From contig JADEYG010000009.1 of the NCBI GenBank assembly GCA_016906335.1, forward strand, positions 434,001-498,000: a DNA stretch of 64,000 nucleotides, written 5' to 3'. The position numbers were made by a program, and so were the translations under genes. This document shows positions 13,441 through 29,461 of this stretch, piece after piece; the stretch's first letter is position 1, and each line of letters opens with the position of its first letter. The notes under the pieces are model-generated. The model worked only from the letters and a program-made list of their open reading frames with translations. It was not told where the DNA came from and searched no databases. Origin of the DNA: Novakomyces olei. Its lineage: Eukaryota.

Positions 13441-16347
13441 CTACCGCTGGATATCTAATGAATTCTGCGCTGAAGACCAACCCGCTCCGCCAGTTTGGCG
13501 CTTAAAGAACCGTCGAAACCCTGTAAACATTGCTCTGTCAGAAGAATCAGGAGCACCTGGGCTAGAACTGCCATCGGCAGGAGTTGTAGGGGCCACAGAT
13601 CGAGCTTCACTGCCCGGCCGAGCGACAGATGAAGTAGTAATCCCGTTTGTTTGAGCTGACGAGCTGAGAGGCGTGGATACTTCAGAAGCAAAGCCTTGGA
13701 GTCCTCGAGCTCCTCTGTCTACTCCGTCCCGTGCAGCGTTAAAAAGGGCAGACGAAAGTATAGAGGGATCAAAATGATGGCTGATGCCGCTCATGAGACT
13801 GCTCGTATTACTGCCACTGCCTGTGTTTAAGGGTGGCAGATTTTCTTTCAGAGAAATGCTGCTCATTAGCGCAGATGCTTCTTTTAAATCGGGTTGTTCC
13901 CGAGTCCGGCGAAGAAATAAGTTTATTATTGCCGCGTGGTCTGATTTACGTATGCCCTATTAAGGTGAGTAAGACTGGGAAATAGATATATATATATATA
14001 CATATAAAAAAAATATAAAAAAAATAAATAAAAAACGGAAAAAAATTGAAAACCATAGTTTTAGCAATTGTTCCAATGTTGAAGACAAAGAAAGCCACTC
14101 TTAAGTGATAGAACACTAGCTTCACAAAAACAAATGTGAATACTTGCTTTTTCTTCTTTTTTTTTTATTCGTTAAACCTACCTTGAGCTCCAAGATCTTT
14201 ATAAAGTTAGCCTCTGACCGGTCGCCGATAAGATAAATATAATTCTGCACCAGTCCGTCTGGAGGGTTACTCCTAGTGAGTACGACTTTAAGCACTCGCT
14301 CCAGCTTCCCCATTTCCTGCTGAGTGTGTCGTGAATATTCGTCTGTAACGCAAAGATCAGTCCCCGGCCGAAGACTGGGTAGTGTAGCCAGACTCTCGCG
14401 AACAAAGTACAAGTCCAACAGCATCTGCTCTGCTCCGACCTCAGAAACTGGCCGGACGTGTACGATGCAAGTCAAGAAAAGAGCGACAAAGGCCTCAACC
14501 ACACGATCACACAGGGACTGAGCAAATCTAGCATTTTCAATACGCACGAGGGCCTCTTTGACTACCCGGTTGATTGTATGTGCCATCTCTGGAGCATAAG
14601 GCGAAGTATCACCGACATCGTCAATGTTTGTCCAGTCAATTTTTTGTACCTGGGCAACAGCTGGATGAAGAGAAGCAATAACAATAGCAACCATCTGTTT
14701 AAGCGCGGCAATTACCACGTCCTGTAGCACTATTCGCTCCTTTCCATACGTCAATTGCTGCGGCGTAGAGATTACTGACCGATCAACTGACCGTGCAAAC
14801 TTTGTTTCCAGCTGTTTCATTGTTTTAAGCATATAATCAGCAGTGTTTACAACAGCAGCAGTCCCGTAAACGGACCGTGCAGCGTCCGCACTGGCCAGTT
14901 CGGGTTTTAGAACCTGTTCGCCATAGAGCCGAAGGTACTTGCCAAACAACTGGAATAGTTTGACAAGACCAGATCCCTGGGTTAGCCGTACACACTGACT
15001 AAACGTCTGACGATAGTATTGGAATAATTCTGGTGAGGAATCAAGCACTGCTGCAACAGACCCCTCTTCCTCTTCCTCTTCTTCTTTGGAAACTCCGTCT
15101 TTCTTGCTACCGGGCAAGCTCGCTCCCCGCTTTTTAAATGCTTGCAGCATTGCTGCTAGTATACGATCTTGCGAGTCAATGTACAGATCTAAATGCGGCT
15201 CAAAAGCCTGTGAAATAAGTTTCCCAAATATCGTATTTGGTGCTGAAGCATTCGCCGATGACTGTGATGCTACAGTTTCCATAGAGGCTCGACGATTAGA
15301 GAACCTTCGTTCCAAGTACGATTCGAATTCAAGCGTTTCTGCAAGCGCAGAGAGCAGTAACTTAATATCCATGTCTTTGCCTTTTCGCTGTAGAATACCG
15401 GAAATGTCTGCACGAGTTTCCTCACCAAACCTTTGCGCAAGCTTAATCCCAACGTTCCAGCCCGCTGGGAAGACCAAGACATAATCTTCCTCGTACGTTT
15501 TCAGGATCCGTTTCAGCCAGGCAAAGCGACGCGTAATGTTATCGAGAGACCCAGCTTCCTCATTGGACCGGAAAACGGAGAGGTAAGACTTGAGCTGCTG
15601 ATCGCAAAACCAGGAAACAAGCTGGTCTTTTGCGTCTTCACCAAGCACTGCAACTGTCTGGCAGGCTTCAGAAAGAGAAATAGCTCTGCCCGAGGAAGGT
15701 TGCGAGCGGCCATCTTTAACGGTATCCTTGAGGTCTTCAAAGACTTGCTCAAGAATTTGCTTTTGCAGGCCAGAAATGCTGCGACTCAAGTCCGCTATTT
15801 GATCTATACTGCGGTAAGACTTAAAATGCTGCATTAGCTGCAAAACTGCTTGGAGTAAATGTGCCGTTTCCGCATAATCCCGTGCCTCTATTTGGCCAGT
15901 TAGTTGATCGTAAGCTGAGACCAACATTTGCAATCGTTTCAGCATTGTCATCGATAGTGTCAAGTTTCGTTTAATTACATCAAGATCTCGTATCTTAACC
16001 GTCATTTGTGAAACTGCCTTTTCCGTACGTCCAGCTCGCTCCTGAATGCCTTCGAGCCGATTAGCTATATCTCCAATTTCTTCACCGACAACAGTTATTC
16101 GGTGTTCCGTTTCAGCTGCTGAAGCTTTCTGTGCAACTTGAAGCGTAGCAATTTCACCATCAATTTCAGTGCAGGCCGCGTCTAAGCGCTCACTCATCAT
16201 TGGCGTGGCATCCAATGCCTCGATGTCGGGACAAAGCGTGTCCAGCATTGTGTATAAATCAAAATCTGCCAAGTCTAGCGGGTCAGTTGCACGTTCGCTA
16301 CTCGAGCCACTTGGCTCTTTCGCCTTGCTTGGCTCTTTTAAGCTCAT
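13441..16347 (-). CDS. VPS53: GARP complex subunit Vps53, 2 exons
   Basis: Motifs LKRLQMLVSAYDQL, EAGSLDNITRRFAWLKR, EVGAEQMLLD; intron ~14182-13958 joins ILELK to GIRKSDH. Confidence 0.93.
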
Positions 16348-16624
16348 AATTAGGTCCAATAATTGACTCAAATGAAACGCAGCATTTACGCCAATGCGCA
16401 CGCTCGCCTAGCGGCAATCTACGACTAGTCTTTGCGTACTAATCTTTTCATGAGCAGCGTTTCGCGATCGGAGGTGCTAAAATAGAGACTTTGCTGTACC
16501 GTATCTACTCTGTGCGGGTTTGATATGGGCAAGTACACAAAGAGGTAGAGTGTGGTAAAGTAGGACACAGTATCTAAAGTAGGACAATGTATGGACAATG
16601 TCTGTGAAATATGGAGAGTTTAGT

Positions 16625-16695
16625 AAAGTATGGTAAAGCTGGTATGGTAAAGTTGGGTAAAGTATGGTAAGTATGGTAAAGTATGGTAAAGTTGG
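16625..16695 (+). repeat. ~10-bp minisatellite (TATGGTAAAG)n in the divergent promoter
   Basis: Degenerate tandem copies. Confidence 0.8.
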
Positions 16696-16836
16696 AAAGC
16701 AAAACTAGGATAACAAGACGGGACGAATACTGTACGTACGGTACGTTCAAAAGTAATATACACAATAAATATAAGCATTATCTGACGGTTGCGTAAAAAT
16801 AGTACTTCTGAGAAACACAAGCAGCTCTCGGTCATC

Positions 16837-17252
16837 ATGAGAGTCAGTCTGAGAGCCTTTGCGGCAGCATCGACGGGCATTACCGGCCTCAAAGTGGTAG
16901 CGGAGCCGCGTCCAGTTCTGCGCAATCTTTACAACGAAACTTTGCATCTTTTAGAGAAAATGCCGGATCATTCCGTCTACCGAACGGCAACAACAGCATT
17001 GATCAAATCTCGTCTGGCGGCAGTTGAGAAGCATGAATCCGTTGAAGCCTTAGAGAACGAAATCCAAAGCGGGCTTGCCGAGGAGATTATTATGCAGGCT
17101 CGTGACGAGCTGCGACTGGTAAAGCGATTGCTCAACGAAAAGCCGTATGCATTGAACAATTAATCTATGAATACAAACTAACCCTGACTAGTTGGGAGGA
17201 ATTAGAGCAAGTACCCGCAGAAAACCAATGGGAGGCTATTCGGCGAGTTTAA
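16837..17252 (+). CDS. NDUFA5: Complex I accessory subunit NDUFA5/B13, 2 exons
   Basis: STGITGLKV, YRTATTALIKSRL, GLAEEIIMQARDEL, spliced KPWEELEQVPAENQW. Confidence 0.9.
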
Positions 17253-17609
17253 GGCTAACGTCGAACGTTAAAGAGCTGTGTAGAATAGTGATTGCTCATG
17301 TGTTTATCGTCAATACAACAAGTACCAGTATTGTACATTTCTTGTTCAAATTGCGTCTACTCTGAATACAAGGTGGCAAGGTGGATGGCCAGCAGTAGTG
17401 TCTGCCTGCCTAACCTGACTGCCTAACCTAACTGCCTAATCTAACTGCCTATACCTACCGTCTTACTAGATTGTGACCGTTAGAGTCTCTGCGCAGATCG
17501 GCAGGCGGCCAAGCCCCAGATCAAATGCAAATCTGCGAAGACCATAATATTAACCCACGATCTATAATGCTACGATGTGGACCGTAGTCTCCCGTGCTAC
17601 GGATACAAT

Positions 17610-17710
17610 TATCGCCATACAAATTGCCATACAAATTGCCATACAAATTGCCATACAAGTGCCATACAATTGCCATACAATTACCATCCAATTGCCATAC
17701 AATCGCCATA
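17610..17710 (+). repeat. 12-bp minisatellite (ATTGCCATACAA)n
   Basis: About 8 tandem copies. Confidence 0.9.
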
Positions 17711-17770
17711 CGAATACCAACTATTTAAACACGCACTTGTAACGGTACAAGTCTCTAGATCTTCAAGCAG

Positions 17771-18517
17771 CTACTCGTTCCGGCTGACATTGCTCCATAA
17801 ACTCGAAACTGAGCTCTGCATACTGCCCCAAGTATGCTTCCCAAAATCCTTGGTTGATTTTCCCAGCTCTTTGGCCCGGCCAAAGAGCGAAGGATCGTCT
17901 GGGTTCAAGAGCCCTCCAGCCGCAGGCGACTGCCGACGGCTGCTGTTGCTCTCCGTACGCACAGGCTGGCTGGCGTACGGGTTCTGTGAGTAGCTGGATA
18001 CGCTGCTGTTGTACGAGGCAGTCCGTGAAACTGCCGCAGGACTGCCCTGCTGAGCCTGTGCTGGACCATACGATCCAGGATTCCACGATGGCTGAGCCGG
18101 AGCCAAATTGGCCGATGGCCCTCCGTCGACGAGACGATGGGTCGCTGCTCGCACTGGCGTTGGATTGTAAACTGCCGTCGCTGCCGCCAAGTTCTCTGTG
18201 CTACTGTTCGCACTAGCAAGCGGACTGTTCGCCGGCAGGCTCTGTGCCGGATCAGCGAGGCGCGTACGGCTCTCGGCGCCAGCGGCCGCGTAAGGAGACG
18301 ACCCGCCACTATTAGGGACAAGCGTCCTTGGCTGAGAGTGCGTTGAAGCGCTTGTTAGAGCGTAGTCTGGCGCAGAGCGACGCGTATCGTGGCGCGGCGA
18401 TTTTGAAGGCGGCCGAAGAGGCGCGTCGCTGAATACGGGCACCACTTGGATTAGTCAAAGGCAGGAGGAGAAACGAAAAGGCACAAGCAAGAAAAATGGG
18501 CTTTATTTACCAGACAT
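17771..18517 (-). CDS. Ser/Ala/Pro-rich hypothetical protein; 7-nt first coding exon
   Basis: ATGTCTG|GTAAAT...CTAATCCAAG| joins the 224-aa ORF; possible amphipathic C-terminus (LFGRAKELGKSTKDFGKHTW). Confidence 0.65.
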
Positions 18518-18788
18518 AAGTTGAAAAGGCAACGGCTTATTGCATCGGTGTGAGTGTAAGAGAAGACGCGCTCGCGTCTACTCGATCCGGGCCTGCTAAT
18601 TTATATCGAATTTATGTAATTATTTATGTAGTAATTTATGTAATATTTTATTACGCGTGGTGCAAAGTCAGCGTGGGAAAATAATTATAGATGAACGCAT
18701 GTATAAAGTGAATAAAGAGTAGATTGAAGAATGTCGACAAGCAAGAAAAGCGAAGCAATAAACTGTAGCATAAACTAAAGCAGTAAAA

Positions 18789-18915
18789 TGTAACATTTCA
18801 CTGTAACATTTCACTGTAACATTTCACTGTAACATTTCACTGTAATATTGGATTTTAACATTGGATTGTAACAGTCAACAGTAACATTCAACTGTAACAT
18901 TGGACTGTAACATTC
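18789..18915 (+). repeat. 13-bp minisatellite (TGTAACATTTCAC)n
   Basis: Tandem copies, degenerating at the 3' end. Confidence 0.88.
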
Positions 18916-19209
18916 AATAATAATTAAACGGCCGTTTTATCAACTATTGAATAATACAAAATAGGACTCTATCACAAGAACGACGCGCCAAAAAAAAAAA
19001 GTGCTGGTCTACCGACCAACTCTGTCCAAAAATATCGCAAGTTAGCCAGGGCCAGTGGCATTTTGTCCCGGCTCTGCGTGTGTGCAGGTAACAGGAAAAC
19101 AATTTCCACAAATTACATATACACAAATAGAGACACTTCAAGATCCAAACTCTTGGTGTATTACTACACAGTTTGACAAGATCATTTACCTGTGTACAAC
19201 ATTAGCTTC

Positions 19210-19674
19210 CTAGCGTCGCCTGTACGATGACCCCACGAAAGATTTGCCAGGTGTATCTTTGTATATAGTGAACCCCGGCCCGTTTCGCGGGAAAATATTC
19301 TCGCTCCACTTGCGACCGTTTGGCAGAGTAAGAATCGAATGCCATACGTCTTCCGTATCATGACTGGCCGCACAGATTTTCTCGTCAATTGGCCCGGGGC
19401 ACTTTTTCCCTTCTGCTGGCGATTCTACACTGAACCAATGCCGTGACGCAGTTTCACGCCAGGGCGTAAATGTGCTTTCCACCATCATTGAGGCAGTTAG
19501 CTGGCCTCTATCAGCAGCTGCATTTTGGTCGATGCGAGCAGGAGAAGGCGTGCTACCTTGACTGCTGGTCCCCGTGTTGATTGAATCATTGTAGCCAGTT
19601 CTGTGCCGATTGGCTCGACGGGTCCTAGCCTGATCAAATCTCAGTCTGTAAGCCTCAATGCCGCTCTGTGACAT
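19210..19674 (-). CDS. Small hypothetical protein (3' end uncertain)
   Basis: 154-aa ORF with AAAAAAATG start context; downstream GCTAAT...CAG acceptor suggests a possible GC-AG intron. Confidence 0.55.
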   Translation of the reverse strand: MSQSGIEAYRLRFDQARTRRANRHRTGYNDSINTGTSSQGSTPSPARIDQNAAADRGQLTASMMVESTFTPWRETASRHWFSVESPAEGKKCPGPIDEKICAASHDTEDVWHSILTLPNGRKWSENIFPRNGPGFTIYKDTPGKSFVGSSYRRR

Positions 19675-19928
19675 TTTTTTTGATCCAATACTGAGCCGTT
19701 TGGCCTAGAAACCTACAGATACCGGTTCAGATCTTGCACCAAATTAGTGACGGTTTCCTCTGCTGACTGATCTTTGATTTGTGCAACGAAATAAGAAAGC
19801 GTTAATTGAAATCTTGTATGGCGTTTGAATATAGGTCGCGTGTGTATAAGCGTGGTCATTGAATTTTCTTTCAACTTTAGCGTCACGTGAGAAGAATGCG
19901 GCCTTTTGAGCCGTCAATATAGTGTGAT

Positions 19929-20861
19929 TTAATAATAAGCGACTGTGTGTAGCAGTGGAAGATTGGGATGAGCTTCCTGCCAGTCGACGAAAATATCGGC
20001 CATACTGCCGTCTAATTTATGTGCTTCATTCGCCTTGCTAAGCTGATTTACCAGCTCCAAAATTCCCTTTCCGCCAATTGCGGCCTCTTCCTGATTGTCC
20101 TTGATGTCCACGTTGATCACGTGAGTAACACAGTTTTGACTTTGTCCACGGTTTAAAAGGTCTAAGGTAAGGTTTTTTGATACAATAAAATCAATACGAT
20201 ACGAATTAATAAAATGTAAAATTATATAGTCAGACCTGCCGTAAAACAGAGCACATCAAGGTAAAAGCACCAAAGGCAATAGGCACAAAAGAACCGAGTA
20301 TAAGTTGACAACAGAAAAGAGCATGTAAAACGATGTGAGCATCTACTCTGCAATACCTTCACAGACTGAATCAAAGCATCGTTCTTCACAAGTTATTATC
20401 AGATCAAACGTTTTACGGCCGTCACGCCAGCGTTGAGGTGCCGTTTTGATATGACGATTACGATCTAGCATGTATAGCAGCCCGTTAAGCGTGTAACTAT
20501 GGTCAGTATTAGAGGAAGAGGCCATTGTCTTGATGATAAACTTACAGTCGAGCATCTTGAGACTTTAGCTCATTGTATATCTGGTCATACGGTGTGCCAA
20601 ACGAGTAGATATTGGGCTGATCAATAGCAGGTCCTGGCAAACGCATCGCTGATCCAGTACCGTAGGAGTCCACATCGTAGCCTGCGTTCCTGAATAGTTG
20701 GAAAAAGTCGGGTTAGTCTTGTGTTTTCATCTAGTTGTGACCAACTTTAATTCGTAATGCGCTTGCATAGAACTGGGAAAGTTAGCATATGCACATTGAT
20801 TGATTCTAAAACTTTACCGATTGTTATTTGACGCGCAAATCACACTAATTCCGAGCTTCAT
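19929..20861 (-). CDS. SSU72: RNA polymerase II CTD phosphatase Ssu72, 5 exons
   Basis: Catalytic [47 protein letters not shown]. Confidence 0.95.
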
Positions 20862-20941
20862 TTTTTGCAATCTCTGGCCGACCCACGTTGTCAAACTTGC
20901 TCTTGACTGGTTGTCAATTGATAGATTGAACTCGCTTGCAG

Positions 20942-21085
<144 letters not shown>

Positions 21086-21230
21086 GTTTTCAAATTACTA
21101 GTTGAATTAACATTATACCACTCTAACCCAAGCCTAGTCCGACATAAACCATCGCCAGTTTAGTCAATTGAAAGCGCAGAAACTTGAATAAATTGCTGCT
21201 CACACGGGACAAGGCAGGCAATTAATCAAA

Positions 21231-22037
21231 ATGCCACCTTCATCGAGGCATTACTATTTCTCGCGGCGGGCGGCGGTCGCAGCACTACACGGAGATCAAG
21301 CACGGGCAAAAGTATTAAATCATTTTTTCCAGAAATGCTTAATATCGCGGCCCGCGTTTGATCATACAACCTCAAAGATCGTCCCGCGTGTGTATCTCAA
21401 TGCCCGGCCGGACCAGCAGGAGTATATAAAGCAGTTCAATTTGGGCCATTTAGATGAGCTTATGAGCCAAAGCAGCAAAGCAGCGCCCAAGAAAATGGAC
21501 GCTCAAATACGAGCGCCGAGGAAAAGCGTCTCCTCCCGAGTACGAGAGCTTGCTACTCCTCTGCAAGACGCTTCAATCGCAACAAAGTTCCTCTGCCGGC
21601 GAGCGGAGGAAATTTTCCGGCGAAAGGGATCCTTTGTCGCGGCTTTCCGTGACGTTGTTTCCTCTTATCATCTACGATCACCAGATAGCGCTTTTACCGG
21701 TGTCCGCGTATCAGTCAGAGGCCGTTTGCAAAAGAGCCGAGGTGCCGGTAGAGCACAAAGGTTTCGAGAGGAAAAGGGAACCGTCAAAGTCTCGACTGTT
21801 GGAGCTCCTACGGATTATCATATGTCTACTTTTAGATCGTTGGAAGGTATTTCCAGCCATAAAGTCTGGATCGGTGGGAAGCGATGGGGACTTGCTGCCA
21901 AGGGTGCTGTTATCGACGGGTCGCATGTTCGTCGGCTGAAGGAAATTCAGAAAGAGACACTGGTAAAATCGGCTGAAAAATCATCTGCTGAAAAAGTTTC
22001 TGCTGAGAAAGTTTCTCCTGAAAAAGTTTCTGCATAG
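21231..22037 (+). CDS. rps3: Nucleus-encoded mitochondrial ribosomal protein uS3m (Rps3/Var1/S5-type), intronless
   Basis: C-terminal S3 domain GVRVSVRGRL...GRAQ...KG...DY...GISSHKVWIGGK; N-terminal YYF...D...KVLNHFF...ISRPAFDHTTSK resembles fungal mtDNA Rps3. Confidence 0.8.
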   Translation: MPPSSRHYYFSRRAAVAALHGDQARAKVLNHFFQKCLISRPAFDHTTSKIVPRVYLNARPDQQEYIKQFNLGHLDELMSQSSKAAPKKMDAQIRAPRKSVSSRVRELATPLQDASIATKFLCRRAEEIFRRKGSFVAAFRDVVSSYHLRSPDSAFTGVRVSVRGRLQKSRGAGRAQRFREEKGTVKVSTVGAPTDYHMSTFRSLEGISSHKVWIGGKRWGLAAKGAVIDGSHVRRLKEIQKETLVKSAEKSSAEKVSAEKVSPEKVSA

Positions 22038-22647
22038 AAGTAATGTAATTATTGATCAAGCAGTGTTGAGCTTTATTTGCACAGTACTTTGATTTGCTTC
22101 GTAAATGTGCTTTTTAGACTAGTCCGCTTTATACACGCACGTGCCGGGCGTAGATTATGTTTTGAATTCAGGATTATTTGTTTTGTTTTGTTCTTTTTTC
22201 CTTCAATCTACAGCTGTTGCGACGAATGTTTGTATAATTTTATCAAATTATCTTAAACCAAATTAATTAAATTATTGAATCAGCGTGATTTAATTTAAGT
22301 TTTTTCTGCTCTAATCAGACTACAGCTATGGTAAAAGAGATACAAAAAACTGTAATTAATCCTCAATATATGACAATGCGACTGTGCAATACATTTATTC
22401 CAAAGCAGGCAGATTTTTTGTCCATATGTTTCAAGCCAAAGCGTTGGAAAGCATCACCACAAACTCGTCTCAAAATACTTTTTGTTCCATTCTCATCGTC
22501 CCCCGTGCTTTTTATAGCATTGTACTGAACAATGCCCACATGAAAAGAATAATATCATATAAATAGCTGAAAAGACTGGACAGCTCGAGCCATACAATTA
22601 TCACGGACAAAAGCCGGTAGATCAAGCACTTATTGCAAGCACTAGCA

Positions 22648-23799
22648 TCAAGCAGCATGCTGTTGTCGCTGCTCTTCCAGTTGCTGGTACAGCAAGGACA
22701 AAGCTTTCTCTGTAGCATCAGGAGTCCCCGTGATTGTAAACAGCCTCTCGCCGGCATCGTTGCACGGCTCCTTTGAAATATTGATTTGGCTGCCAGACGC
22801 TCTTCGAATCTCACTGATCTTACTCCCACCTCGCCCGATAATACATCCCACCATATCCCCAGGAATAGGGATCTGCTGTGTTTGTAATTGCCGATCGTCC
22901 CCCGTGAATTCGGCAGGTGCCGGCCTTTTGTAGCCGCTGCTGTTATTGCCATTACGATGTACTCCACCTCTGCCAAAGTGCGGAGGCCTCCGGCCGTATG
23001 GGTTATGGCGACCCATTGAATGATCCATCATTGGCCCGCCAAGAGCCATCCCCATAAAAGGGGGAGCCGGTGCTAGGCCTCCCATAGCAGGAATCGAACC
23101 CATGGCAGCACCATAAGGCTGAGCCAGTCTGACCATGGGATTGTACAGAACTGTGCCTGAAGCACGGTCCCAATCAGCAGCCAGGCACCGGCTGATAAGC
23201 AATACAGCATGGCCCAATGGTTCTGGCTGGCCTTGTACTTCTACAAGACGCTCACTAGACTGTGGCAGTAGCTCTTTAGTAGCGTTTAATTTGACTCCAG
23301 CAGTTTCCTGAATTTCTCTGATTTTTGAGCCCTGCCTGCCTATTATTGACCCGACAAGAGCGTGTGAAACGAGGAGGCGAATACGCTGCCAGTCTCTGTG
23401 CTCTTCTCCACCAACTCCTCCGCCAGCTCCCGCATCAGTATCGTTTTGAGTATCCTGAAAGCTTTTGGCAATGTGTACAAAGGCACGTGAAATGTTCTCC
23501 AAAGGGCCCGACACTGTCAGGACCCGATCATTGACGCCAGTAATAACTTTGCTCACACCTGCTTTAACCCCGAGCGAGTCTCGCATTTCTGCGACATTAC
23601 GGCCTTCTTTCCCGATAATTATTCCGGCTTCCTTTGTCGAGATCAGTGCTCGCAGCGTTATCTGCGCCGACTGATCTGATACTGTCGGTGCGTTATTTGC
23701 TGCCACATTTGTCGCTGATGACTCGTCAAAAGTTGCGTCATCTGCCGCACTCAAATCAGACTCTTCACTGCGCTTTGCATCTGCAGTGTCGCTGCTCAT
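22648..23799 (-). CDS. Triple KH-domain RNA-binding protein (Rnc1/Hek2/Pbp2 family), intronless
   Basis: Three GxxG KH motifs: IIGKEGRNV, IIGRQGSKI, IIGRGGSKI. Confidence 0.93.
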   Translation of the reverse strand: MSSDTADAKRSEESDLSAADDATFDESSATNVAANNAPTVSDQSAQITLRALISTKEAGIIIGKEGRNVAEMRDSLGVKAGVSKVITGVNDRVLTVSGPLENISRAFVHIAKSFQDTQNDTDAGAGGGVGGEEHRDWQRIRLLVSHALVGSIIGRQGSKIREIQETAGVKLNATKELLPQSSERLVEVQGQPEPLGHAVLLISRCLAADWDRASGTVLYNPMVRLAQPYGAAMGSIPAMGGLAPAPPFMGMALGGPMMDHSMGRHNPYGRRPPHFGRGGVHRNGNNSSGYKRPAPAEFTGDDRQLQTQQIPIPGDMVGCIIGRGGSKISEIRRASGSQINISKEPCNDAGERLFTITGTPDATEKALSLLYQQLEEQRQQHAA

Positions 23800-23916
23800 T
23801 TTTGTGTGGAAGCGACTCTTGCGCTCGACACAGACAGCCTCGTACACTGTTTATTTGCACACGAATGACGACGAGTTTTGACGAGAAATTTGCGTATGTT
23901 TGTATCCCACATACTA

Positions 23917-24236
<320 letters not shown>

Positions 24237-24329
24237 TGCAGATACCTACAAAATATTGTAATAAAACGCAATTGAACTCGGATTAAATGATACTACGTAC
24301 AAACTACAATATCCTGATTAATGTACACA

Positions 24330-27300
24330 TCAAGTCTCCAGCGCCGCCAGCTCTTGCTGGCAGCTTTCACAGTACTCGAGCAGGTGCTGTGGCACCTCTT
24401 GTCCCCCAGATGTGAGCAATTGCCGGCCACGCTGGCACTGAACCGTTTCATCATACACAAACTGCCGGTAATGGCCCTTGACTGCTTCACGTTCCAGGCT
24501 GTCCAGTGTCTTTATGGCCACAATGTAATCGTGGCGCATCACAGCAAAGTCTTGCCGCATGAAATGAAGGCGGGTTAAATGATTATTTTCGTCAATATTC
24601 GCGTAATTGTTGTTTAAAGATTCATCAAACAAAGTGTAGCATGAGCCGTTGCCCCTAAAGGCAAATTTGTCCCGAACATACTCGTCCACATCGGCGCTGT
24701 ATAGAGCCCGAGAGATAGTTCCCACTGCATCAAGTCTCAGCTCGCTCAGTACTTTGTCCGCCCGCCGCTCTGTCCAATACGCGAGTGTTGATCGGGAGGC
24801 CAGTGCCATGTTGACGAGGGCAGAGAGCAGTAAGAACAGAATAATAAGTTTATTGGCATCAATGGCCTCTAGCACCGCTGACGCCCTGTCCCGAAGTGCG
24901 GACCCAAAGTCAGACAAGCAGCTCATCACGAAAAGTGCCATGTTTTGCCTTATTATATCCCCGACTGACGCCATCAGCATTGATCCAATCTTGGAGTCTG
25001 GTGGGGCAATGAGTCTCCGGCTCTTTTGTAGAGCTCCTACTCGCCCATAAATCCTAATTGCTCTTGATTTTTTAGCATGCCTGCCCAGTTTTTCGATTTC
25101 ATCAGACACGACTTTATGCAAGCCGTCTGCGAACCGCTGGCAGATACACAGCGAAGCCTGGTCCAGGACCTGTTGGAACCCGAATATCCGTCGGTGGAAG
25201 TCAAGGGCATAGGAAACCATGACTTTGCACCTGCCTTTACTCACAAACGAGATGGAGACACGGGTAACCGCCTCAAAATCCCGATAAAAGGGCAATTGCC
25301 AGAGCGTATTGCGCAGGGTGGCGATGTACACTAAATGCTCACTCCTTTGGTCAAGAGTTTGGACATTGTGCATTTCTATCCTACGATCTTTGCCCAGTGG
25401 GGTCCGAAAGGCACAGGTTATATCAAAAGTACGCCGAAGTCCGTCACGGCCGGGTAAACGTTGCCACGGGTTTTGTACCGTGTCCACCGAGCCCATTGAA
25501 TTGTAAAGCAGCTGATAAAGACCCGAGTTATCACCAAAGAGGAGGTGGAACATACACTTTGCGCTTATATCGTACTCGTGCACACTCAGCATATGCTTAA
25601 AGTGCTCACTGCGGGGCACATCTACGGGGACAGTTGGCAGCTTGTACCTCACAATCTCTGGCTTATGGTCAATAGTCTTCTCCCGTTTGTAAGGGTGGAC
25701 CATACTGAGCGAGTGCTGCAGGGCTGTCACGTTTGTTGCACTGTGGACAAGTGCATTGTGCACCTGTACATCGCCTGTAAGTGACTCGTCTTCAGCGTCA
25801 CGAAGCCCTTTGTACCAGGGCGAATCGCCGCTCGGCCTTCGCTCCGATTCGTCCTGATAGGGGAGTTGAATTTCCTCGCCGGCATCAGCGATATACGCAA
25901 AGACCTGGTCAGCATCGCGAGGGCTGTCGGACAAGAAATTTTGCAGCAAAAAGCTTACACGCCTCCTCAGCAACACTACGTCATCAAGGTAAACCCTAAA
26001 CGTGACAAACCCTACATTATACACCTCGAGGACCAAGTAATCACAGTGTTTGCCAGGCAGTGTTTGCACGTCTAAAACGTCGGTAAAGGAAAACGTTTTA
26101 AGCGTCACCATATCGTAGGCCCTGCCGTAAAAATAAAGGCCATTATTCGTTACGTAGACACGCCCAGAGACAGAGTAGTTGGAGGCACTGGAGACGTAGT
26201 AGACTGCCCTAAAGACCATTAAAAGCCGCTCATTCATATCTACTGCACTGAAAAAGGCATGAAACTGGGCATCGTTCTTGCGCAGCTCGAGTGGGTACCT
26301 TCGAGGGTACCTTGGCAGTGTAAAATCTACTGACGTTCTTGCCTTTGTCGAGCTGGAGGAAAGCTGCCTTGACTCACTGGCTTCCTTGCCACTAACCTGC
26401 CGAGACTGGCCGTCTTGAGCCGATTGTGGCTGATACTGAGCTTCTCCTGATCCCGACGATTCTATCGTCTCTTGTTTCCCTTCCCGCTCCTTTCGCTCAT
26501 TTTCTCCCAACTTTTCAACTTCCTTCTCGGCCTCTTGCGGTATCGTCCACGAACTTGTTCCCCAATAGTTTGCTCTTATTCCACTCGGAATCGTCTTGTC
26601 CAGCTCCGCTTCCCTCTGGTTTTCATCACTGCAAGCCGCGTAAGCCCTCCCTGTGTAAGCTGTGTTTATAGGTGCCGGGGCAAATGACATTGGTGCAAAC
26701 GAGGTAACCATCAGCAGCTCTGGCCCATTCGAGTTTACAAGCCTCGGTCTCCCGATAGAGGGCAGACGGGTACCTGTGGGACTTTGAGGGACCATTGCAG
26801 CGGAATTAGAGGCGCCTATAAGCACACCTATACCTTGGGCTGAGCTTCCTCCTGAGCCCGAATTTGTGGTAGAGCCTGAATTCGTGGCAGAGCCCTGTAC
26901 TGGCGATCCCTGACCTGCTCCCGACCCACGGCCTGATCCATTAGAGATAGACAGTGAGGGCAGCGTCCTTGTTGGGCTATCCATACTGAGCCTGGCTAAG
27001 GGCCCGTCGATAGCCGATAAATTTCCTGCTTCGTGAAGATGACCTTCAGCAGCAAAGTCTTCGTGAGACGGTGGAGAGATGACAAAAGCCTGAGGGTATC
27101 CGTTAGAGGCCAGTACCTGTCTCTTGGACGTTTCAAACGCTTCCAGCCAATCCTTCAAATCATGTTCATCGCCTGCCTGTAGAATTATAGAAAACTGCTT
27201 AGTCATGACTTCGAAACAGAACCTCCGGTCCTCCTGCGGCCTTAAATGAACACTGCAAAGCAGTACACCGATACGCTCGCCTTCCTCAACGACTCCCTTC

Positions 27301-28427
27301 CGGGAAGAAACGAGCCAGCCAAAGACGCCGCGTTCAAGAAAGTACCACCGTTTCTGCCATACATAATTTGTCCTCGTTTTGCCGACTTGACGAACGTAGA
27401 GGTAGCCTTGCTGTTTCACTGGGCCACCGTCTTTCTCCAATCCTGAAGCCGCCTGCTTCACTGTGCTTCCAGCAACTGAAGATCGCAGAGTATTCAGGCC
27501 ATAAGGTTTGAGTTCACGTGTGGGCTGTTTAGACTCACACGCATCGCGTTCCATCCCCTCACGGATAGTATCAAGTTGGCGTTTGAGGGAGGGAACGTGC
27601 CGCTGCACTTGTGTGAGCCAGTTGAGGGTGCGGTTGCGGAGTACTGTAGACTTTTCCACTTGAGCAAGCGCAAGACGGACGTTTAAAAGCGCATTGTCCA
27701 CGCCCAGCGAGAAAGTTTCCACTACCAGTTTATCGATTGCATTTCTAAAAGACGGGAGAGCTGTTGCTAAATCAAACGAGGCATGAAAGTACTGCTTGCG
27801 TGCCTCGTGTAGCTGGAAAGCAGATTCCCGAATAGCCGACACTTCCTTCGACTTGGACATGGAGTAGTAGCGTGCGTCAGCTGATTCATACGCGTCCAGT
27901 GTACGATCGTACGCACGTTTCAAGTCACGCATCCCCCGCAGGTCTCGAACTTGGAACCTGTGCAGTGGCTCAAAGACCCGATCGTTGGTATACTTCATTT
28001 GCTTCGTTACCGGGTTTGCGAGTGAGCGCAGCTCTTCTCCGAACCCGTGGAGAGCTGTCACTGCATAGTCAGTGTCAAGAAAGACTTCGGGGCTGTATGT
28101 AGGCACTAGACGATCTGTAAGGCCGTTGAGCGAATCTTCCAGGCCGGCCGCTGCAGCAACGGCAGTTTGAACAGCCTTGATGACATCAGTGAGCCATTTT
28201 TCAAACACGTCCAGCTGCTCTTCCAAGTTTTTCACTGCCGAGCGGTACGAAGGCGAATCAAGGCGGCACTCTTCCAGAACAACGGCGTACAGGCTGCCTG
28301 GCGCAGGACTGCCCTGTGCAGGAGCAAGGCTGCCTTGCAAGTCTAGACTGCCAGACGCTGTACGCGAAGACGGATTATTGCCGCCGCCGTCTGCCGGCAC
28401 AGATGCTTCGTCCCGTACGTTTGCCAT
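24330..28427 (-). CDS. SIP3: Membrane-anchored sterol transfer protein of the Sip3/Lam1 type (BAR-PH-GRAM-VASt-TM)
   Basis: LDSPSYR BAR start, PH (KQQGYLY...WQKRWYFL...DRRFCFEV), ANYWGT, GRAM-like GRVYVT, LFHLLFGD-like VASt, C-terminal TM. Confidence 0.88.
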   Translation of the reverse strand: MANVRDEASVPADGGGNNPSSRTASGSLDLQGSLAPAQGSPAPGSLYAVVLEECRLDSPSYRSAVKNLEEQLDVFEKWLTDVIKAVQTAVAAAAGLEDSLNGLTDRLVPTYSPEVFLDTDYAVTALHGFGEELRSLANPVTKQMKYTNDRVFEPLHRFQVRDLRGMRDLKRAYDRTLDAYESADARYYSMSKSKEVSAIRESAFQLHEARKQYFHASFDLATALPSFRNAIDKLVVETFSLGVDNALLNVRLALAQVEKSTVLRNRTLNWLTQVQRHVPSLKRQLDTIREGMERDACESKQPTRELKPYGLNTLRSSVAGSTVKQAASGLEKDGGPVKQQGYLYVRQVGKTRTNYVWQKRWYFLERGVFGWLVSSRKGVVEEGERIGVLLCSVHLRPQEDRRFCFEVMTKQFSIILQAGDEHDLKDWLEAFETSKRQVLASNGYPQAFVISPPSHEDFAAEGHLHEAGNLSAIDGPLARLSMDSPTRTLPSLSISNGSGRGSGAGQGSPVQGSATNSGSTTNSGSGGSSAQGIGVLIGASNSAAMVPQSPTGTRLPSIGRPRLVNSNGPELLMVTSFAPMSFAPAPINTAYTGRAYAACSDENQREAELDKTIPSGIRANYWGTSSWTIPQEAEKEVEKLGENERKEREGKQETIESSGSGEAQYQPQSAQDGQSRQVSGKEASESRQLSSSSTKARTSVDFTLPRYPRRYPLELRKNDAQFHAFFSAVDMNERLLMVFRAVYYVSSASNYSVSGRVYVTNNGLYFYGRAYDMVTLKTFSFTDVLDVQTLPGKHCDYLVLEVYNVGFVTFRVYLDDVVLLRRRVSFLLQNFLSDSPRDADQVFAYIADAGEEIQLPYQDESERRPSGDSPWYKGLRDAEDESLTGDVQVHNALVHSATNVTALQHSLSMVHPYKREKTIDHKPEIVRYKLPTVPVDVPRSEHFKHMLSVHEYDISAKCMFHLLFGDNSGLYQLLYNSMGSVDTVQNPWQRLPGRDGLRRTFDITCAFRTPLGKDRRIEMHNVQTLDQRSEHLVYIATLRNTLWQLPFYRDFEAVTRVSISFVSKGRCKVMVSYALDFHRRIFGFQQVLDQASLCICQRFADGLHKVVSDEIEKLGRHAKKSRAIRIYGRVGALQKSRRLIAPPDSKIGSMLMASVGDIIRQNMALFVMSCLSDFGSALRDRASAVLEAIDANKLIILFLLLSALVNMALASRSTLAYWTERRADKVLSELRLDAVGTISRALYSADVDEYVRDKFAFRGNGSCYTLFDESLNNNYANIDENNHLTRLHFMRQDFAVMRHDYIVAIKTLDSLEREAVKGHYRQFVYDETVQCQRGRQLLTSGGQEVPQHLLEYCESCQQELAALET

Positions 28428-28659
28428 TAGCGCAGCATTCACACAGGCGCGCGGCTTTTCGAACGGTCGGATGCTTTTGTGCGGCGCTTCAACAAACCGA
28501 CGTATGCCGTCACTCGCACTATATTTTTATAGTGGGAATTTTACGTTGGCTGTTACCGTAACGTGGGAGCTGCGTAGTGGCGATAAGTGTAATATTACAC
28601 TTACAAGTGAGTGTAACTTTGCACCTTTTTTTCTATCGAAACGTTACGTTACGTCTAGT

Positions 28660-28922
28660 TGGGCCTATAGCTGTGGACCTATAGTTGTATAGTGTCGGCC
28701 TATGTTGTATAGTGTTGGCCTATAGTTTGTATAGTGTTGGCCTTAGTATAACTCTATAGTGTCGGGTGTCGGCCTATTGTTGTATAGTGTTGGCCTTAGT
28801 TGTATAGTGTGGGCCTATAATTGTATAGTGTTGGCCTATAATTGTATAGTGTTGGCCTATAACTCTATAGTGTCGGCCTATCGTTGTATAGTGTTGGCCT
28901 TAGTTGTATAAGGTTGGCCTAT
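28660..28922 (+). repeat. ~21-bp minisatellite (TTGTATAGTGTTGGCCTATAA)x~12
   Basis: Head-to-tail degenerate copies, no spacers. Confidence 0.92.
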
Positions 28923-29461
28923 CGGTATGAGCCTAAATATGGTCGAACAATAATCGCGTACACGATAATGTGCTCGGCAGCCGCCTGCCCAACTGTGCTG
29001 TCAAATTGATTAGCCGTCTAATCTCAAATCCGGGTTTGCCTGGATTGAGATTGCTTGTAATGCTATGAACGGTCGCCCTTCAAGCTGGCAAAAAGGGACG
29101 ACTCTGGTCCGATCGGGCAGAGACGCGTTTTGACATTTCAGAATTTTGCCATGTATAAGCACAACATTAATATGCGTTATTTCGTCCCTCCTCCCCCACT
29201 TTAGCTTATCTGTTGCGTAGTGCGCTCGTGATTTGTTGGGACGAGCCTTTTCTAGTGTACCATGAACGTTCTTCCCCACTTTCTTAGACTGAATTACTCC
29301 CCCCGACACTATGGGACTGCATACAAGGAACTAGCAAGGAACGGGCGATTTATGAAAAGGATAGGTTGCTTGTACACAGTATTACTTTAAACCCACGACG
29401 CTTGTTCTGGTCGACAGAATGTGTGCTGATGTGCCACACATGGTCTGCTTTTCATTATCTT

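What the first reader, a model, noticed from the sequence alone, without database searches (positions are those of the whole stretch)
21231..22037. Mitochondrial ribosomal protein S3 gene relocated to the nucleus
Seen: an intact, intronless 268-aa ORF between nuclear genes (SSU72 and a KH protein), with nuclear-like base composition and TGG for Trp. It has an S3 C-terminal domain (GVRVSVRGRL...KVWIGGK) and an N-terminal block like fungal mtDNA Rps3. Known: rps3/var1 is usually mtDNA-encoded and very AT-rich in ascomycetes, including S. pombe and S. cerevisiae. Nuclear copies exist in some lineages, so this may be an independent transfer. Inference: a completed, functional gene transfer. The Arg/Ser-rich N-terminus (MPPSSRHYYFSRRAAVAALHG) has no acidic residues and appears to overlap the conserved region, so the import signal may have been remodelled in place rather than added.
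Basis: partly seen in the sequence, partly recalled or inferred. Interest (0 to 1): 0.75.

Follow-up and report, generated by a model that had tools for sequence, protein, structure and literature searches.

The report
Nuclear gene for mitochondrial ribosomal protein uS3m
This is an intact nuclear gene, in a deep-branching ascomycete fungus, for the mitochondrial ribosome protein S3 that most fungi still encode in mitochondrial DNA; such nuclear copies are already on record in a few other fungi, so it is a very divergent new example of a known kind.

Summary
It lies head-to-head with SSU72 and tail-to-tail with a three-KH-domain gene, and its base composition matches its nuclear neighbours.

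It is a very divergent member of the bacterial/organellar uS3 family, fungal VAR1/Rps3 type. Alone it falls just under Pfam's curated cut-offs. Paired with its one close relative (P0002, 60% identity), it matches bona fide VAR1-type proteins at 99.4% probability (E 6.8e-22).

Nuclear copies of this family already exist in public data, in Taphrina deformans, Protomyces lactucae-debilis and Savitreella phatthalungensis. A paper states that rps3 is nuclear in several fungi. The kind is therefore known.

Three points stay open:
- **Origin:** an independent transfer is neither shown nor excluded. An AU test does not reject grouping with the Taphrinomycetes copies (p 0.19).
- **Completion:** no genome of this organism is held, so I could not check whether its mtDNA has lost rps3.
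- **Expression:** no RNA run was listed.

The N-terminus carries no added presequence. Import is therefore inferred, not shown.

The parts
21231..22037 (+). Coding sequence of nuclear-encoded mitochondrial ribosomal protein uS3m (268 aa plus TAG), with no intron needed
   Evidence: ORF shown. Family matches: VAR1 E 1.4e-6, S3_C E 2.1e-5, TIGR01009 rpsC_bact E 2.9e-8, hhalign 99.4%.
21192..21230 (+). In-frame leader between the upstream TAA (21189-21191) and the ATG. tblastn alignments to the Taphrina and Savitreella proteins start here, at 21219. This looks like a vestige of the ancestral N-terminus, now upstream of the start codon.
   Evidence: P0006 residues 9-226 and P0005 residues 9-214 both align from 21219. 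Calling it a vestige is inference from a short, weak stretch.
21231..21296 (+). Residues 1-22: basic, Arg/Ser/Ala-rich N-terminus with no acidic residue before D22. Candidate (unproven) matrix-targeting segment. It overlaps the block that aligns with the uS3 N-terminus.
   Evidence: first acidic residue at 22, net +3 in 20 aa; alignment; helix modelled at 12-32, low confidence.
21279..21410 (+). Residues 17-60: conserved N-terminal motif block of fungal mitochondrial Rps3 (H31, F33, Q34, L37, S39, P41, Y55)
   Evidence: These columns are invariant in 17 sequences. 31/44 residues are identical to P0002.
21411..21530 (+). Residues 61-100: poorly conserved linker in the place of the bacterial KH domain. 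No KH profile match.
   Evidence: 10/39 residues identical to P0002. No PF07650 hit at E up to 10, whereas bacterial relatives P0017-P0020 carry it.
21687..21875 (+). Residues 153-215: S3 C-terminal domain core (GVRVSVRGRL ... KVWIG)
   Evidence: 53/63 residues identical to P0002. Pfam S3_C matches residues 138-214. Aligns to bacterial uS3 C-domains.
21968..22033 (+). 15-nt tandem repeat, 4.4 copies, encoding the AEKVS-like C-terminal tail. Absent from the relative P0002.
   Evidence: TRF; alignment.
20942..21058 (.). (TTAT)29 microsatellite inside the 369-bp divergent intergenic region shared with SSU72
   Evidence: SSU72 ATG placed at 20861-20859.
19929..20861 (-). SSU72 phosphatase gene (several exons), head-to-head neighbour
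   Evidence: Pfam Ssu72 E 3.3e-20 on one exon. Other exons read by eye from stop-to-stop frames. Boundaries are approximate.
22648..23799 (-). Three-KH-domain RNA-binding protein gene, tail-to-tail neighbour
   Evidence: KH_1 E 1.9e-42, three stretches.

Best explanation
The ORF is a functional nuclear gene for uS3m, the mitochondrial small-subunit ribosomal protein S3 (fungal names Rps3, Var1, S5). It descends from the mitochondrial rps3 gene by transfer to the nucleus.

**Shown**
- It is homologous to the bacterial/organellar uS3 family of VAR1 type.
- It lies in a nuclear context with nuclear composition.
- The frame is intact.
- Conservation against its one close relative is concentrated in the domains.

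**Inferred**
- The mRNA is translated in the cytosol.
- The protein is imported into the matrix. It would use either its basic, acid-free N-terminal 20 or so residues or internal signals. No added presequence is present: the start codon lies inside the block that aligns with the uS3 N-terminus.
- It is built into the head of the mitochondrial small subunit at the mRNA entry channel, as Var1/uS3m is in yeast.
For: **Family**
- Single-sequence matches: Pfam VAR1 E 1.4e-6 over residues 37-214 (profile 2-192 of 195) and S3_C E 2.1e-5. The only NCBIfam match is bacterial rpsC, E 2.9e-8.
- phmmer over 1,835,955,588 representatives gave 4 hits at E up to 0.001. These were P0002 and three proteins that themselves score 80-157 bits on VAR1.
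- Profile-profile comparison of P0001+P0002 against 15 VAR1-type proteins: 99.4%, E 6.8e-22, 189 columns.
- The 17-sequence profile hits bacterial uS3 nearly end to end (8fmw_C, E 1.2e-17). It also hits plant uS3m (6xyw_Bb), yeast Var1 (5mrc_CC, E 5.9e-7) and Neurospora S5 (6yw5_CC, E 3.1e-4).
- The AlphaFold model is weak (pLDDT 56.3). Even so, all 50 top Foldseek hits listed are bacterial or chloroplast ribosome entries (best E 8.5e-10, about 200 columns, TM 0.36-0.49).

**Nuclear, not a stray mtDNA fragment**
- The neighbours are SSU72, a KH protein, a Zn2Cys6 factor, Vps53, myotubularin and a copia element.
- ORF GC is 0.498. The 18 mtDNA-type rps3 loci fetched from metagenomes have GC 0.21-0.29.
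- The GARP/FYMINK amino-acid ratio is 1.43, against 0.46-0.50 for mtDNA-encoded Podila Rps3.
- There are no tRNA or Rfam matches in 15000-29000.
- Only one homologous locus exists in the window.

**Under selection**
- Identity to P0002 by region: S3_C core 53/63, N-terminal motif 31/44, linker 10/39.
- P0001 keeps all 19 columns that are invariant across the 17 sequences.
- No relative-rate excess appears against any of 15 outgroups (smallest p 0.078).

**Precedent**
- Nuclear-type homologues sit on contigs of 685,724 bp (Savitreella), 676,895 bp (Protomyces) and 63,276 bp (Taphrina deformans, named uS3m by UniRef).
Against: - Each single-sequence Pfam or NCBIfam score is below its curated cut-off: 29 against 33, 25.4 against 34.1, and 33.7 against 114.5 bits.
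- Codon usage correlates poorly with 11 other ORFs of the window (RSCU r 0.107). Only 2.0% of 440 same-length control segments score as low. Codon bias in this window is weak overall (control mean r 0.354).
- The structure model has low confidence.
- The maximum-likelihood tree gave P0001 a long tip (0.58, against 0.025 for P0002). Direct counts do not confirm that asymmetry.
- The N-terminal amphipathic moment (0.45) is no higher than in other window ORFs. The mtDNA-encoded Podila protein is equally basic at its N-terminus. No feature here specifically argues for a targeting signal.
- Absence of rps3 from this organism's mtDNA, transcription, import and ribosome incorporation are all untested.
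Confidence: 0.8

Rival explanations
1. Origin, reading A: the gene goes back to the same mitochondrion-to-nucleus transfer that produced the nuclear uS3m genes of Taphrinomycetes (Taphrina, Protomyces, Savitreella). The window lineage then diverged very fast.
For: - Nuclear-type copies exist in three Taphrinomycetes genera.
- The window's myotubularin has its best hits in Protomyces (52%) and Taphrina (51%).
- In a one-gene tree it falls outside Pezizomycotina (100/99) and outside the sampled Saccharomycotina (99/99). It sits in an unresolved group with Saitoella and the Taphrina/Protomyces clade.
- The AU test does not reject window clade plus Taphrinomycetes as one clade (p 0.192).
- Both groups lack an added presequence and start within the uS3 N-terminal block.
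Against: - The free tree puts the window clade outside all other fungal sequences (91/93). The stem is 1.29 long and the tool warns of long-branch attraction.
- Identity to the Taphrinomycetes proteins is only 22-28%.
- The uS3m and myotubularin genes lie 12 kb apart here. In Taphrina and Protomyces they are on contigs of different lengths, so there is no sign of shared linkage.
- Local synteny (SSU72, KH) could not be checked.
Confidence: 0.42
2. Origin, reading B: an independent transfer in this isolated ascomycete lineage, separate from the Taphrinomycetes event.
For: - The window clade (P0001+P0002) does not group with Taphrinomycetes in the free tree.
- Sequence, length and N-terminus differ strongly. 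About 12 N-terminal residues are missing and a repeat tail has been added.
- The organism is not inside the Taphrina/Protomyces clade (100/99).
- Papers report a patchy presence of rps3 in ascomycete mtDNAs, which implies repeated loss or relocation (PMC9154068 and PMC5626475, passages seen).
Against: - The AU test cannot reject a common clade (p 0.192).
- The tree has no mtDNA-encoded ascomycete sequences, because none could be fetched.
- Long-branch attraction toward the bacterial outgroup is likely.
Confidence: 0.36
3. The nuclear ORF is a redundant or decaying copy (an old nuclear insert of mtDNA). The working uS3m is still encoded in this organism's mtDNA.
For: - Scores are below the curated family cut-offs.
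- Codon usage is unusual.
- The tree shows a long tip branch.
- The mtDNA was not examined.
Against: - 268 codons stay open at 50% GC.
- Composition is fully nuclear, against 0.21-0.29 GC in mtDNA-type genes.
- Conservation against P0002 is domain-specific (84% against 26%).
- All invariant family residues are kept.
- There is no rate asymmetry in 15 of 15 outgroup comparisons.
- No flanking mitochondrial genes, tRNAs or introns were found.
Confidence: 0.08
4. It is a cytosolic ribosomal S3, or bacterial contamination in the assembly.
For: The best single-sequence PDB hits are bacterial uS3.
Against: - The flanks are eukaryotic fungal genes on the same contig.
- There is no KH_2 domain.
- The fungal mitochondrial N-terminal motif is present.
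- Its nearest relatives are VAR1-type fungal proteins.
- None of the 59 PDB hits is named a 40S protein.
- In the tree the five bacterial sequences form a separate clade (100/99).
Confidence: 0.01

Closest known systems
Nuclear-encoded uS3m of Taphrinomycetes: Taphrina deformans CCG83169.1 (UniRef R4XBD8, 'Small ribosomal subunit protein uS3m'), Protomyces lactucae-debilis ORY85626.1, Savitreella phatthalungensis PYCC9005_001980
   Same: - VAR1-type uS3 with nuclear-type amino-acid make-up, on large contigs.
- About 250-260 aa, with no KH domain.
- No added presequence; the N-terminus aligns with the uS3 N-terminus.
   Different: - Only 22-28% identical.
- The window protein lacks about the first 12 residues and has a 15-nt repeat tail.
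- It falls below Pfam cut-offs, whereas P0005, the one protein of this clade that was scanned, scores 80 bits on VAR1; the 152-157-bit scores belong to the Endogone and Podila-type proteins.
- It does not group with them in the free tree, although the AU test does not reject this.
mtDNA-encoded fungal Rps3 / Var1 / S5 (Podila verticillata YP_203368.1; S. cerevisiae Var1, PDB 5mrc chain CC; Neurospora S5, PDB 6yw5 chain CC)
   Same: - The same protein family and the same N-terminal motif and S3_C core.
- Presumably the same place in the small subunit.
   Different: - Those genes lie in mtDNA, are AT-rich (0.21-0.29 GC in the 18 loci), and their proteins are rich in N, K, I, Y and F.
- This gene is nuclear with 0.50 GC.
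Bacterial uS3 (rpsC)
   Same: Two-domain architecture that aligns almost end to end at the profile level (8fmw_C, profile 7-214 against chain 5-204). The fold search agrees.
   Different: - The KH domain with its glycine loop is no longer recognisable (no PF07650 hit).
- The first N-terminal strand is missing.
- The gene is eukaryotic and nuclear.
Allotopic VAR1 (recoded yeast VAR1 expressed from the nucleus; Sanchirico et al. 1995, seen only as cited in PMC7337963) and metazoan nuclear uS3m
   Same: uS3m made in the cytosol can be imported and can function. In metazoa uS3m is always nuclear (PMC7337963 introduction, passage seen).
   Different: - The yeast case is engineered. That it used a grafted presequence is my recollection, not checked.
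- Here the relocation is natural and no presequence has been added.

Membership tests
Bacterial/organellar uS3 (Ribosomal_S3_C, PF00189; TIGR01009) | Recognisable S3 C-terminal domain | tested here: met
   - Single sequence: E 2.1e-5, but 25.4 bits is under the 34.1-bit cut-off. TIGR01009 gives E 2.9e-8, at 33.7 bits under the 114.5-bit cut-off.
- 17-sequence profile against PDB: bacterial uS3 at E 1.2e-17.
- Foldseek: best hit E 8.5e-10.
Fungal mitochondrial Rps3/VAR1 (PF05316) | Score above Pfam's curated gathering threshold | tested here: inconclusive
   29.0 bits against a cut-off of 33. The E-value is 1.4e-6 and coverage is profile 2-192 of 195. P0002 behaves the same way, at 26 bits.
Fungal mitochondrial Rps3/VAR1 (PF05316) | Full-length homology to bona fide members | tested here: met
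   hhalign 99.4%, E 6.8e-22, 189 aligned columns against 15 proteins. Of those 15, the three that were scanned (P0003, P0004, P0005) each pass the VAR1 cut-off.
Fungal mitochondrial Rps3/VAR1 (PF05316) | Conserved N-terminal motif (H-Y/F-F-Q-x-x-L-x-S-x-P). I recall it as the motif of Bullerwell et al. 2000, a paper I did not see. | tested here: met
   H31, F33, Q34, S39 and P41 are invariant and L37 nearly invariant in 17 sequences.
Fungal mitochondrial Rps3/VAR1 (PF05316) | No KH domain in the N-terminal half | tested here: met
   No PF07650 hit at E up to 10. The bacterial hits P0017-P0020 carry it.
Functional endosymbiotic gene transfer | Gene absent from (or dead in) the organism's own mtDNA | not testable with these tools
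   No genome is held for this window. The runs are coded and can only be laid on window sequence.
Functional endosymbiotic gene transfer | Nuclear location and nuclear-type sequence | tested here: met
   Flanking nuclear genes. GC, GC3 and amino-acid make-up. No mitochondrial RNA genes nearby.
Functional endosymbiotic gene transfer | Expression, import into mitochondria, assembly into the mitoribosome | not testable with these tools
   No targeting predictor is on hand. The simple N-terminal features do not discriminate.
Nuclear insert of mtDNA (pseudogene) | mtDNA-like composition, flanking mitochondrial sequence, broken frame | tested here: not met
   GC 0.498 against 0.21-0.29. No tRNA or Rfam hit. 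The frame is intact.
Cytosolic (archaeal/eukaryotic type) uS3 | KH_2 domain and closest similarity to 40S S3 | tested here: not met
   No KH_2 hit. The only NCBIfam hit is the bacterial equivalog. None of the 59 PDB hits is named 40S.

The most novel reading that the evidence does not exclude
This reading makes two claims.

**An independent transfer.** The gene records a separate, natural mitochondrion-to-nucleus transfer of rps3 in an isolated ascomycete lineage. rps3 is a gene said to have moved fewer than six times in eukaryotes.

**An import signal made in place.** No presequence was captured. Instead the start codon moved about 12 codons into the conserved uS3 N-terminal strand. The vestige is still readable upstream of the ATG, at 21219-21230. 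This exposed an Arg/Ser/Ala-rich, acid-free segment that now doubles as the targeting signal.

If both hold, together with the Taphrinomycetes and possibly Endogone copies, uS3m would be a protein that is 'pre-adapted' for import, and its retention in most fungal mtDNAs would not be an import problem.
Probability: 0.25. Interest if true: 0.55.

Novelty: new member of a known kind. Interest (0 to 1): 0.35.

Why it matters
- **Why rps3 is of interest.** It is the one soluble protein that most fungal mitochondrial genomes keep, and why it is kept is an open question (PMC7337963, passage seen). A review counts it among the genes rarely transferred to the nucleus, with fewer than 6 transfers (PMC10809612, passage seen).
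- **What each natural nuclear copy offers.** It shows what is needed for relocation. In this gene, and in the Taphrinomycetes copies, no added presequence is visible.
- **What this gene adds.** It is the most divergent such copy found here, with only 4 hits in 1.84 billion representatives. It would be missed by threshold-based annotation, so mitogenome papers that report 'rps3 lost' may overlook nuclear copies of this kind.
- **Limit.** The phenomenon itself is already in print and in databases.

Tried and rejected
- **Own genome and mtDNA:** not held.
- **Expression:** no RNA holder was listed. The two DNA runs laid (X1, a possible source, and X2) read identical to the window over the stretches they cover. 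X2 leaves 21100-21194 and 21788-21794 uncovered, and covers 28 of 30 bins. This gives neither polymorphism for a dN/dS estimate nor any evidence on transcription. I re-sent the part beside it, as the tool advised.
- **Relatives with flanks, for synteny:**
  - The metagenome scan gave 24 loci. By my reading, 18 are AT-rich Podila/Mortierella-like mitochondrial rps3 and 6 are bacterial rpsC.
  - None is a relative of the window clade or of Taphrinomycetes, so synteny could not be tested.
  - The viral-contig scan found no relative among 98 pattern matches.
  - Searching the record behind L001 was not possible.
- **mtDNA-encoded ascomycete Rps3 for the tree:** no tool gave them as usable sequences, so the tree lacks the key comparison.
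- **Tip-branch asymmetry** (P0001 0.58 against P0002 0.025): rejected as evidence of decay, because 0 of 15 relative-rate comparisons are significant.
- **Upstream exon restoring the missing N-terminus:** three-frame translation and tblastn of 20880-21230 found nothing beyond the 12 nt just before the ATG.
- **Targeting signal:** the heuristic features do not separate this protein from non-mitochondrial ORFs or from mtDNA-encoded Rps3. They are not used as evidence.
- **Protein atlas:** the nearest clusters are named uS3m/VAR1 (score 0.93). This agrees with the family call but is only a lead. The atlas search with Vps53 gave no useful taxonomy.
- **Not used:** Complex prediction and the second structure job.
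Full report
**Observation**

The window holds an open frame from the ATG at 21231 to a TAG ending at 22037 on the + strand. It has 268 codons and no internal stop. The next in-frame stop upstream is TAA at 21189-21191, so 21231 is the first ATG.

- **Left:** a 70-aa ORF at 20343..20555 (-) matches Pfam Ssu72 (E 3.3e-20). Stop-to-stop frames show further Ssu72-like exons up to an ATG at 20861-20859 (-) (exon structure read by eye). The two genes are therefore head-to-head, 369 bp apart, with a (TTAT)29 microsatellite between them.
- **Right:** 22648..23799 (-) encodes a protein with three KH_1 domains (E 1.9e-42).

The wider window is plainly fungal nuclear DNA. It holds a Zn2Cys6/Fungal_trans factor, Vps53, a myotubularin phosphatase, a BAR-PH-GRAM-VASt protein and a copia-type polyprotein.

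The ORF has GC 0.498 and GC3 0.444, within the range of seven other ORFs (GC 0.469-0.607). The intergenic DNA around it has GC 0.155-0.346. Trp is coded by TGG twice and there is no TGA.

**What it is**

Alone, the protein (P0001) gives consistent but sub-threshold matches:

| Library model | E-value | Bits | Curated cut-off | Region matched |
|---|---|---|---|---|
| Pfam VAR1 | 1.4e-6 | 29 | 33 | residues 37-214, profile 2-192 of 195 |
| Pfam Ribosomal_S3_C | 2.1e-5 | 25.4 | 34.1 | residues 138-214 |
| NCBIfam rpsC_bact (its only hit) | 2.9e-8 | 33.7 | 114.5 | residues 9-214 |

The protein is extremely isolated.
- The word-indexed search of 5.8 billion proteins gave one hit, P0002 (246 aa, unnamed; 54% by BLASTP, 60% in the MAFFT alignment).
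- An exhaustive phmmer over 1,835,955,588 representatives gave four hits at E up to 0.001: P0002, P0003, P0004 and P0005. The last three are strong VAR1 members, at 157, 152 and 80 bits.

A profile-profile comparison settles membership. P0001+P0002 against 15 VAR1-type proteins gives 99.4% probability, E 6.8e-22, over 189 columns spanning residues 7-216.

A 17-sequence profile then matches bacterial uS3 almost end to end (8fmw_C, E 1.2e-17, profile 7-214 against chain 5-204). It also matches plant mitochondrial uS3m, yeast Var1 (5mrc_CC, E 5.9e-7) and Neurospora S5 (6yw5_CC, E 3.1e-4). Of the 59 hits, none is named a 40S protein.

The AlphaFold model is poor (mean pLDDT 56.3, pTM 0.48). Its best Foldseek matches are nevertheless bacterial and chloroplast uS3 chains (best E 8.5e-10, about 200 columns, TM 0.36-0.49).

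P0001 has no KH_2 match, unlike the bacterial relatives P0017-P0020. The conserved N-terminal motif of fungal mitochondrial Rps3 is present: H31, F33, Q34, S39 and P41 are invariant in 17 sequences.

**Is it a live gene?**

No expression data could be had (see Tried and rejected). The indirect evidence favours a gene under selection.
- Identity to P0002 is strongly domain-dependent: 53/63 in the S3_C core, 31/44 in the N-terminal motif block, 25/52 in the middle helices and 10/39 in the linker.
- P0001 keeps all 19 columns that are invariant in the 17-sequence alignment.
- The tree gave P0001 a long tip (0.58) and P0002 a short one (0.025). Direct counts of unique changes against 15 outgroups show no significant asymmetry in any comparison (smallest p 0.078). 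I treat that asymmetry as an artefact of a long stem.

One oddity remains. Codon usage correlates weakly with 11 other ORFs (r 0.107), and only 2.0% of 440 control segments of equal length score as low (control mean 0.354, sd 0.122).

Nothing suggests a raw insert of mtDNA.
- The 18 mtDNA-type rps3 genes fetched from metagenomes have GC 0.21-0.29.
- There are no tRNA genes or Rfam families in 15000-29000.
- The window holds only this one homologous locus.

**The N-terminus**

Relatives, whether nuclear-type or mtDNA-encoded, begin with a block that aligns with the very N-terminus of bacterial uS3.

P0001 begins inside this block. tblastn with the Taphrina and Savitreella proteins aligns their residue 9 onward starting at window 21219, which is 12 nt upstream of the ATG. 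The start codon therefore seems to have moved about 12 codons inward, and no new presequence was added.

Residues 1-21 have three Arg, two His and no acidic residue.

The same basic character is found in the mtDNA-encoded Podila protein (net +3 in 20 residues, first acidic residue at 19). The amphipathic moment (0.45) is also unremarkable among the window's ORFs. The features are thus ancestral to uS3 and are no evidence of targeting.

A paper reports that up to 25% of yeast mitoribosomal proteins lack a conventional N-terminal signal (PMC8724765; only the search listing with the start of its abstract was seen). Import without a presequence is therefore plausible. Here it is inference.

**Relatives and origin**

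The profile search found 17 proteins at E up to 1e-5. Thirteen are VAR1-type and four are bacterial.

| Protein | Organism | Longest contig | Type |
|---|---|---|---|
| P0005 | Savitreella phatthalungensis | 685,724 bp | nuclear-type |
| P0006 | Taphrina deformans CCG83169.1 (UniRef: uS3m) | 63,276 bp | nuclear-type |
| P0157 | Protomyces lactucae-debilis | 676,895 bp | nuclear-type |
| P0003 | Endogone sp. | 28,949 bp | nuclear-like make-up |
| P0004 cluster | contains Podila verticillata 'ribosomal protein S3 (mitochondrion)' | not relevant | mtDNA-encoded |

Amino-acid make-up separates the groups. The GARP/FYMINK ratio is 0.46-0.50 for the Podila mitochondrial proteins, 0.87-1.58 for the Taphrinomycetes and Endogone proteins, and 1.43 for P0001. 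Nuclear uS3m genes therefore already exist in public data for Taphrinomycetes.

The window's organism was placed only roughly.
- Its myotubularin has its best hits in Protomyces (52%) and Taphrina (51%). A mix of Pezizomycotina, Lipomycetaceae and Saitoella follows at 44-51%.
- In a 22-row tree it lies outside Pezizomycotina (100/99), outside the sampled Saccharomycotina (99/99) and outside Taphrina/Protomyces (100/99). It sits in an unresolved group with Saitoella.
- This is one gene only. It suggests an isolated, non-Pezizomycotina ascomycete lineage.

In the uS3m tree (25 rows, 235 columns), the window clade sits on a 1.29-long stem, outside all other fungal sequences (91/93). The tool warns of long-branch attraction.

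The AU test does not reject a clade of window clade plus Taphrinomycetes (p 0.192). A shared transfer and an independent transfer therefore both remain open.

mtDNA-encoded ascomycete sequences, which would decide this, could not be obtained.

**Literature** (passages seen unless stated otherwise)

[quoted passage not shown] 2018. I did not see the cited paper.
- PMC5626475 says rps3 is a free-standing mtDNA gene in Taphrinomycotina. It also says no nuclear counterpart was found in Dothideomycetes.
- PMC9154068 reports rps3 absent from the mtDNA of several yeast families.
- PMC4618339 reports the same for the CTG clade.
- PMC10809612 lists rps3 among genes transferred fewer than six times and notes that natural transfers exist.
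- PMC7337963 notes that uS3m is always nuclear in metazoa and that a recoded VAR1 works from the yeast nucleus.
- My searches listed no paper whose title or abstract concerns the Taphrinomycetes nuclear copies or this lineage. I opened only some of the listed papers, the library is partial, and supplements were not read.

**Verdict**

It is a new and unusually divergent member of a known kind.

'Completed', 'functional' and 'independent' remain untested. The in-place N-terminus idea fits the alignments but is not specific evidence for import.

- Interest: 0.35.
- Most novel surviving reading: an independent transfer, with a targeting signal made by a start-codon shift into the conserved N-terminus. 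Probability about 0.25.

Noticed in passing
window 23916-24236: A very long (ATA)107 microsatellite (98% matches) fills the gap between the KH gene and the BAR-PH-GRAM-VASt gene. Local GC falls to 0.17. Together with (TTAT)29 at 20942-21058, it shows that intergenic DNA here is rich in AT microsatellites.
   Followed up: no
window 30418-34587 (-): An uninterrupted 1389-aa copia-type polyprotein ORF with gag, beta-barrel, integrase and RVT_2 domains. It may be an intact LTR retrotransposon. LTRs were not looked for.
   Followed up: no
P0003 / P0141 (Endogone sp. FLAS-F59071, RUS22029.1; contig 28,949 bp): A Mucoromycota VAR1-type protein with nuclear-like amino-acid make-up (GARP/FYMINK 1.03-1.09, against 0.46-0.50 in mitochondrial Podila Rps3). 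It groups with the Podila/Mortierella mitochondrial genes (86/94). It may be a further, separate nuclear relocation of rps3. The contig's nature was not checked.
   Followed up: partly
window 21968-22033: The last 22 or so codons of the uS3m ORF are a 15-nt tandem repeat (4.4 copies, 84% matches) that gives an AEKVS-like tail. The relative P0002 lacks it. This looks like a recent coding microsatellite expansion.
   Followed up: partly
window 21231-22034: Codon usage of the uS3m ORF correlates poorly with other ORFs of the window (r 0.107, in the lowest 2.0% of 440 control segments), although its GC and GC3 are ordinary. Unexplained.
   Followed up: partly
window 21195-22500, run X2: A run with a different organism label (organism B) and from a different study holds this stretch with no differences, at low depth of about 4-6. 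The same organism seems to be present in another sample.
   Followed up: no
window 41136-43505 (-) and 46502-47524 (+): Two long ORFs (788 and 340 aa) have no Pfam family at E up to 1e-5.
   Followed up: no
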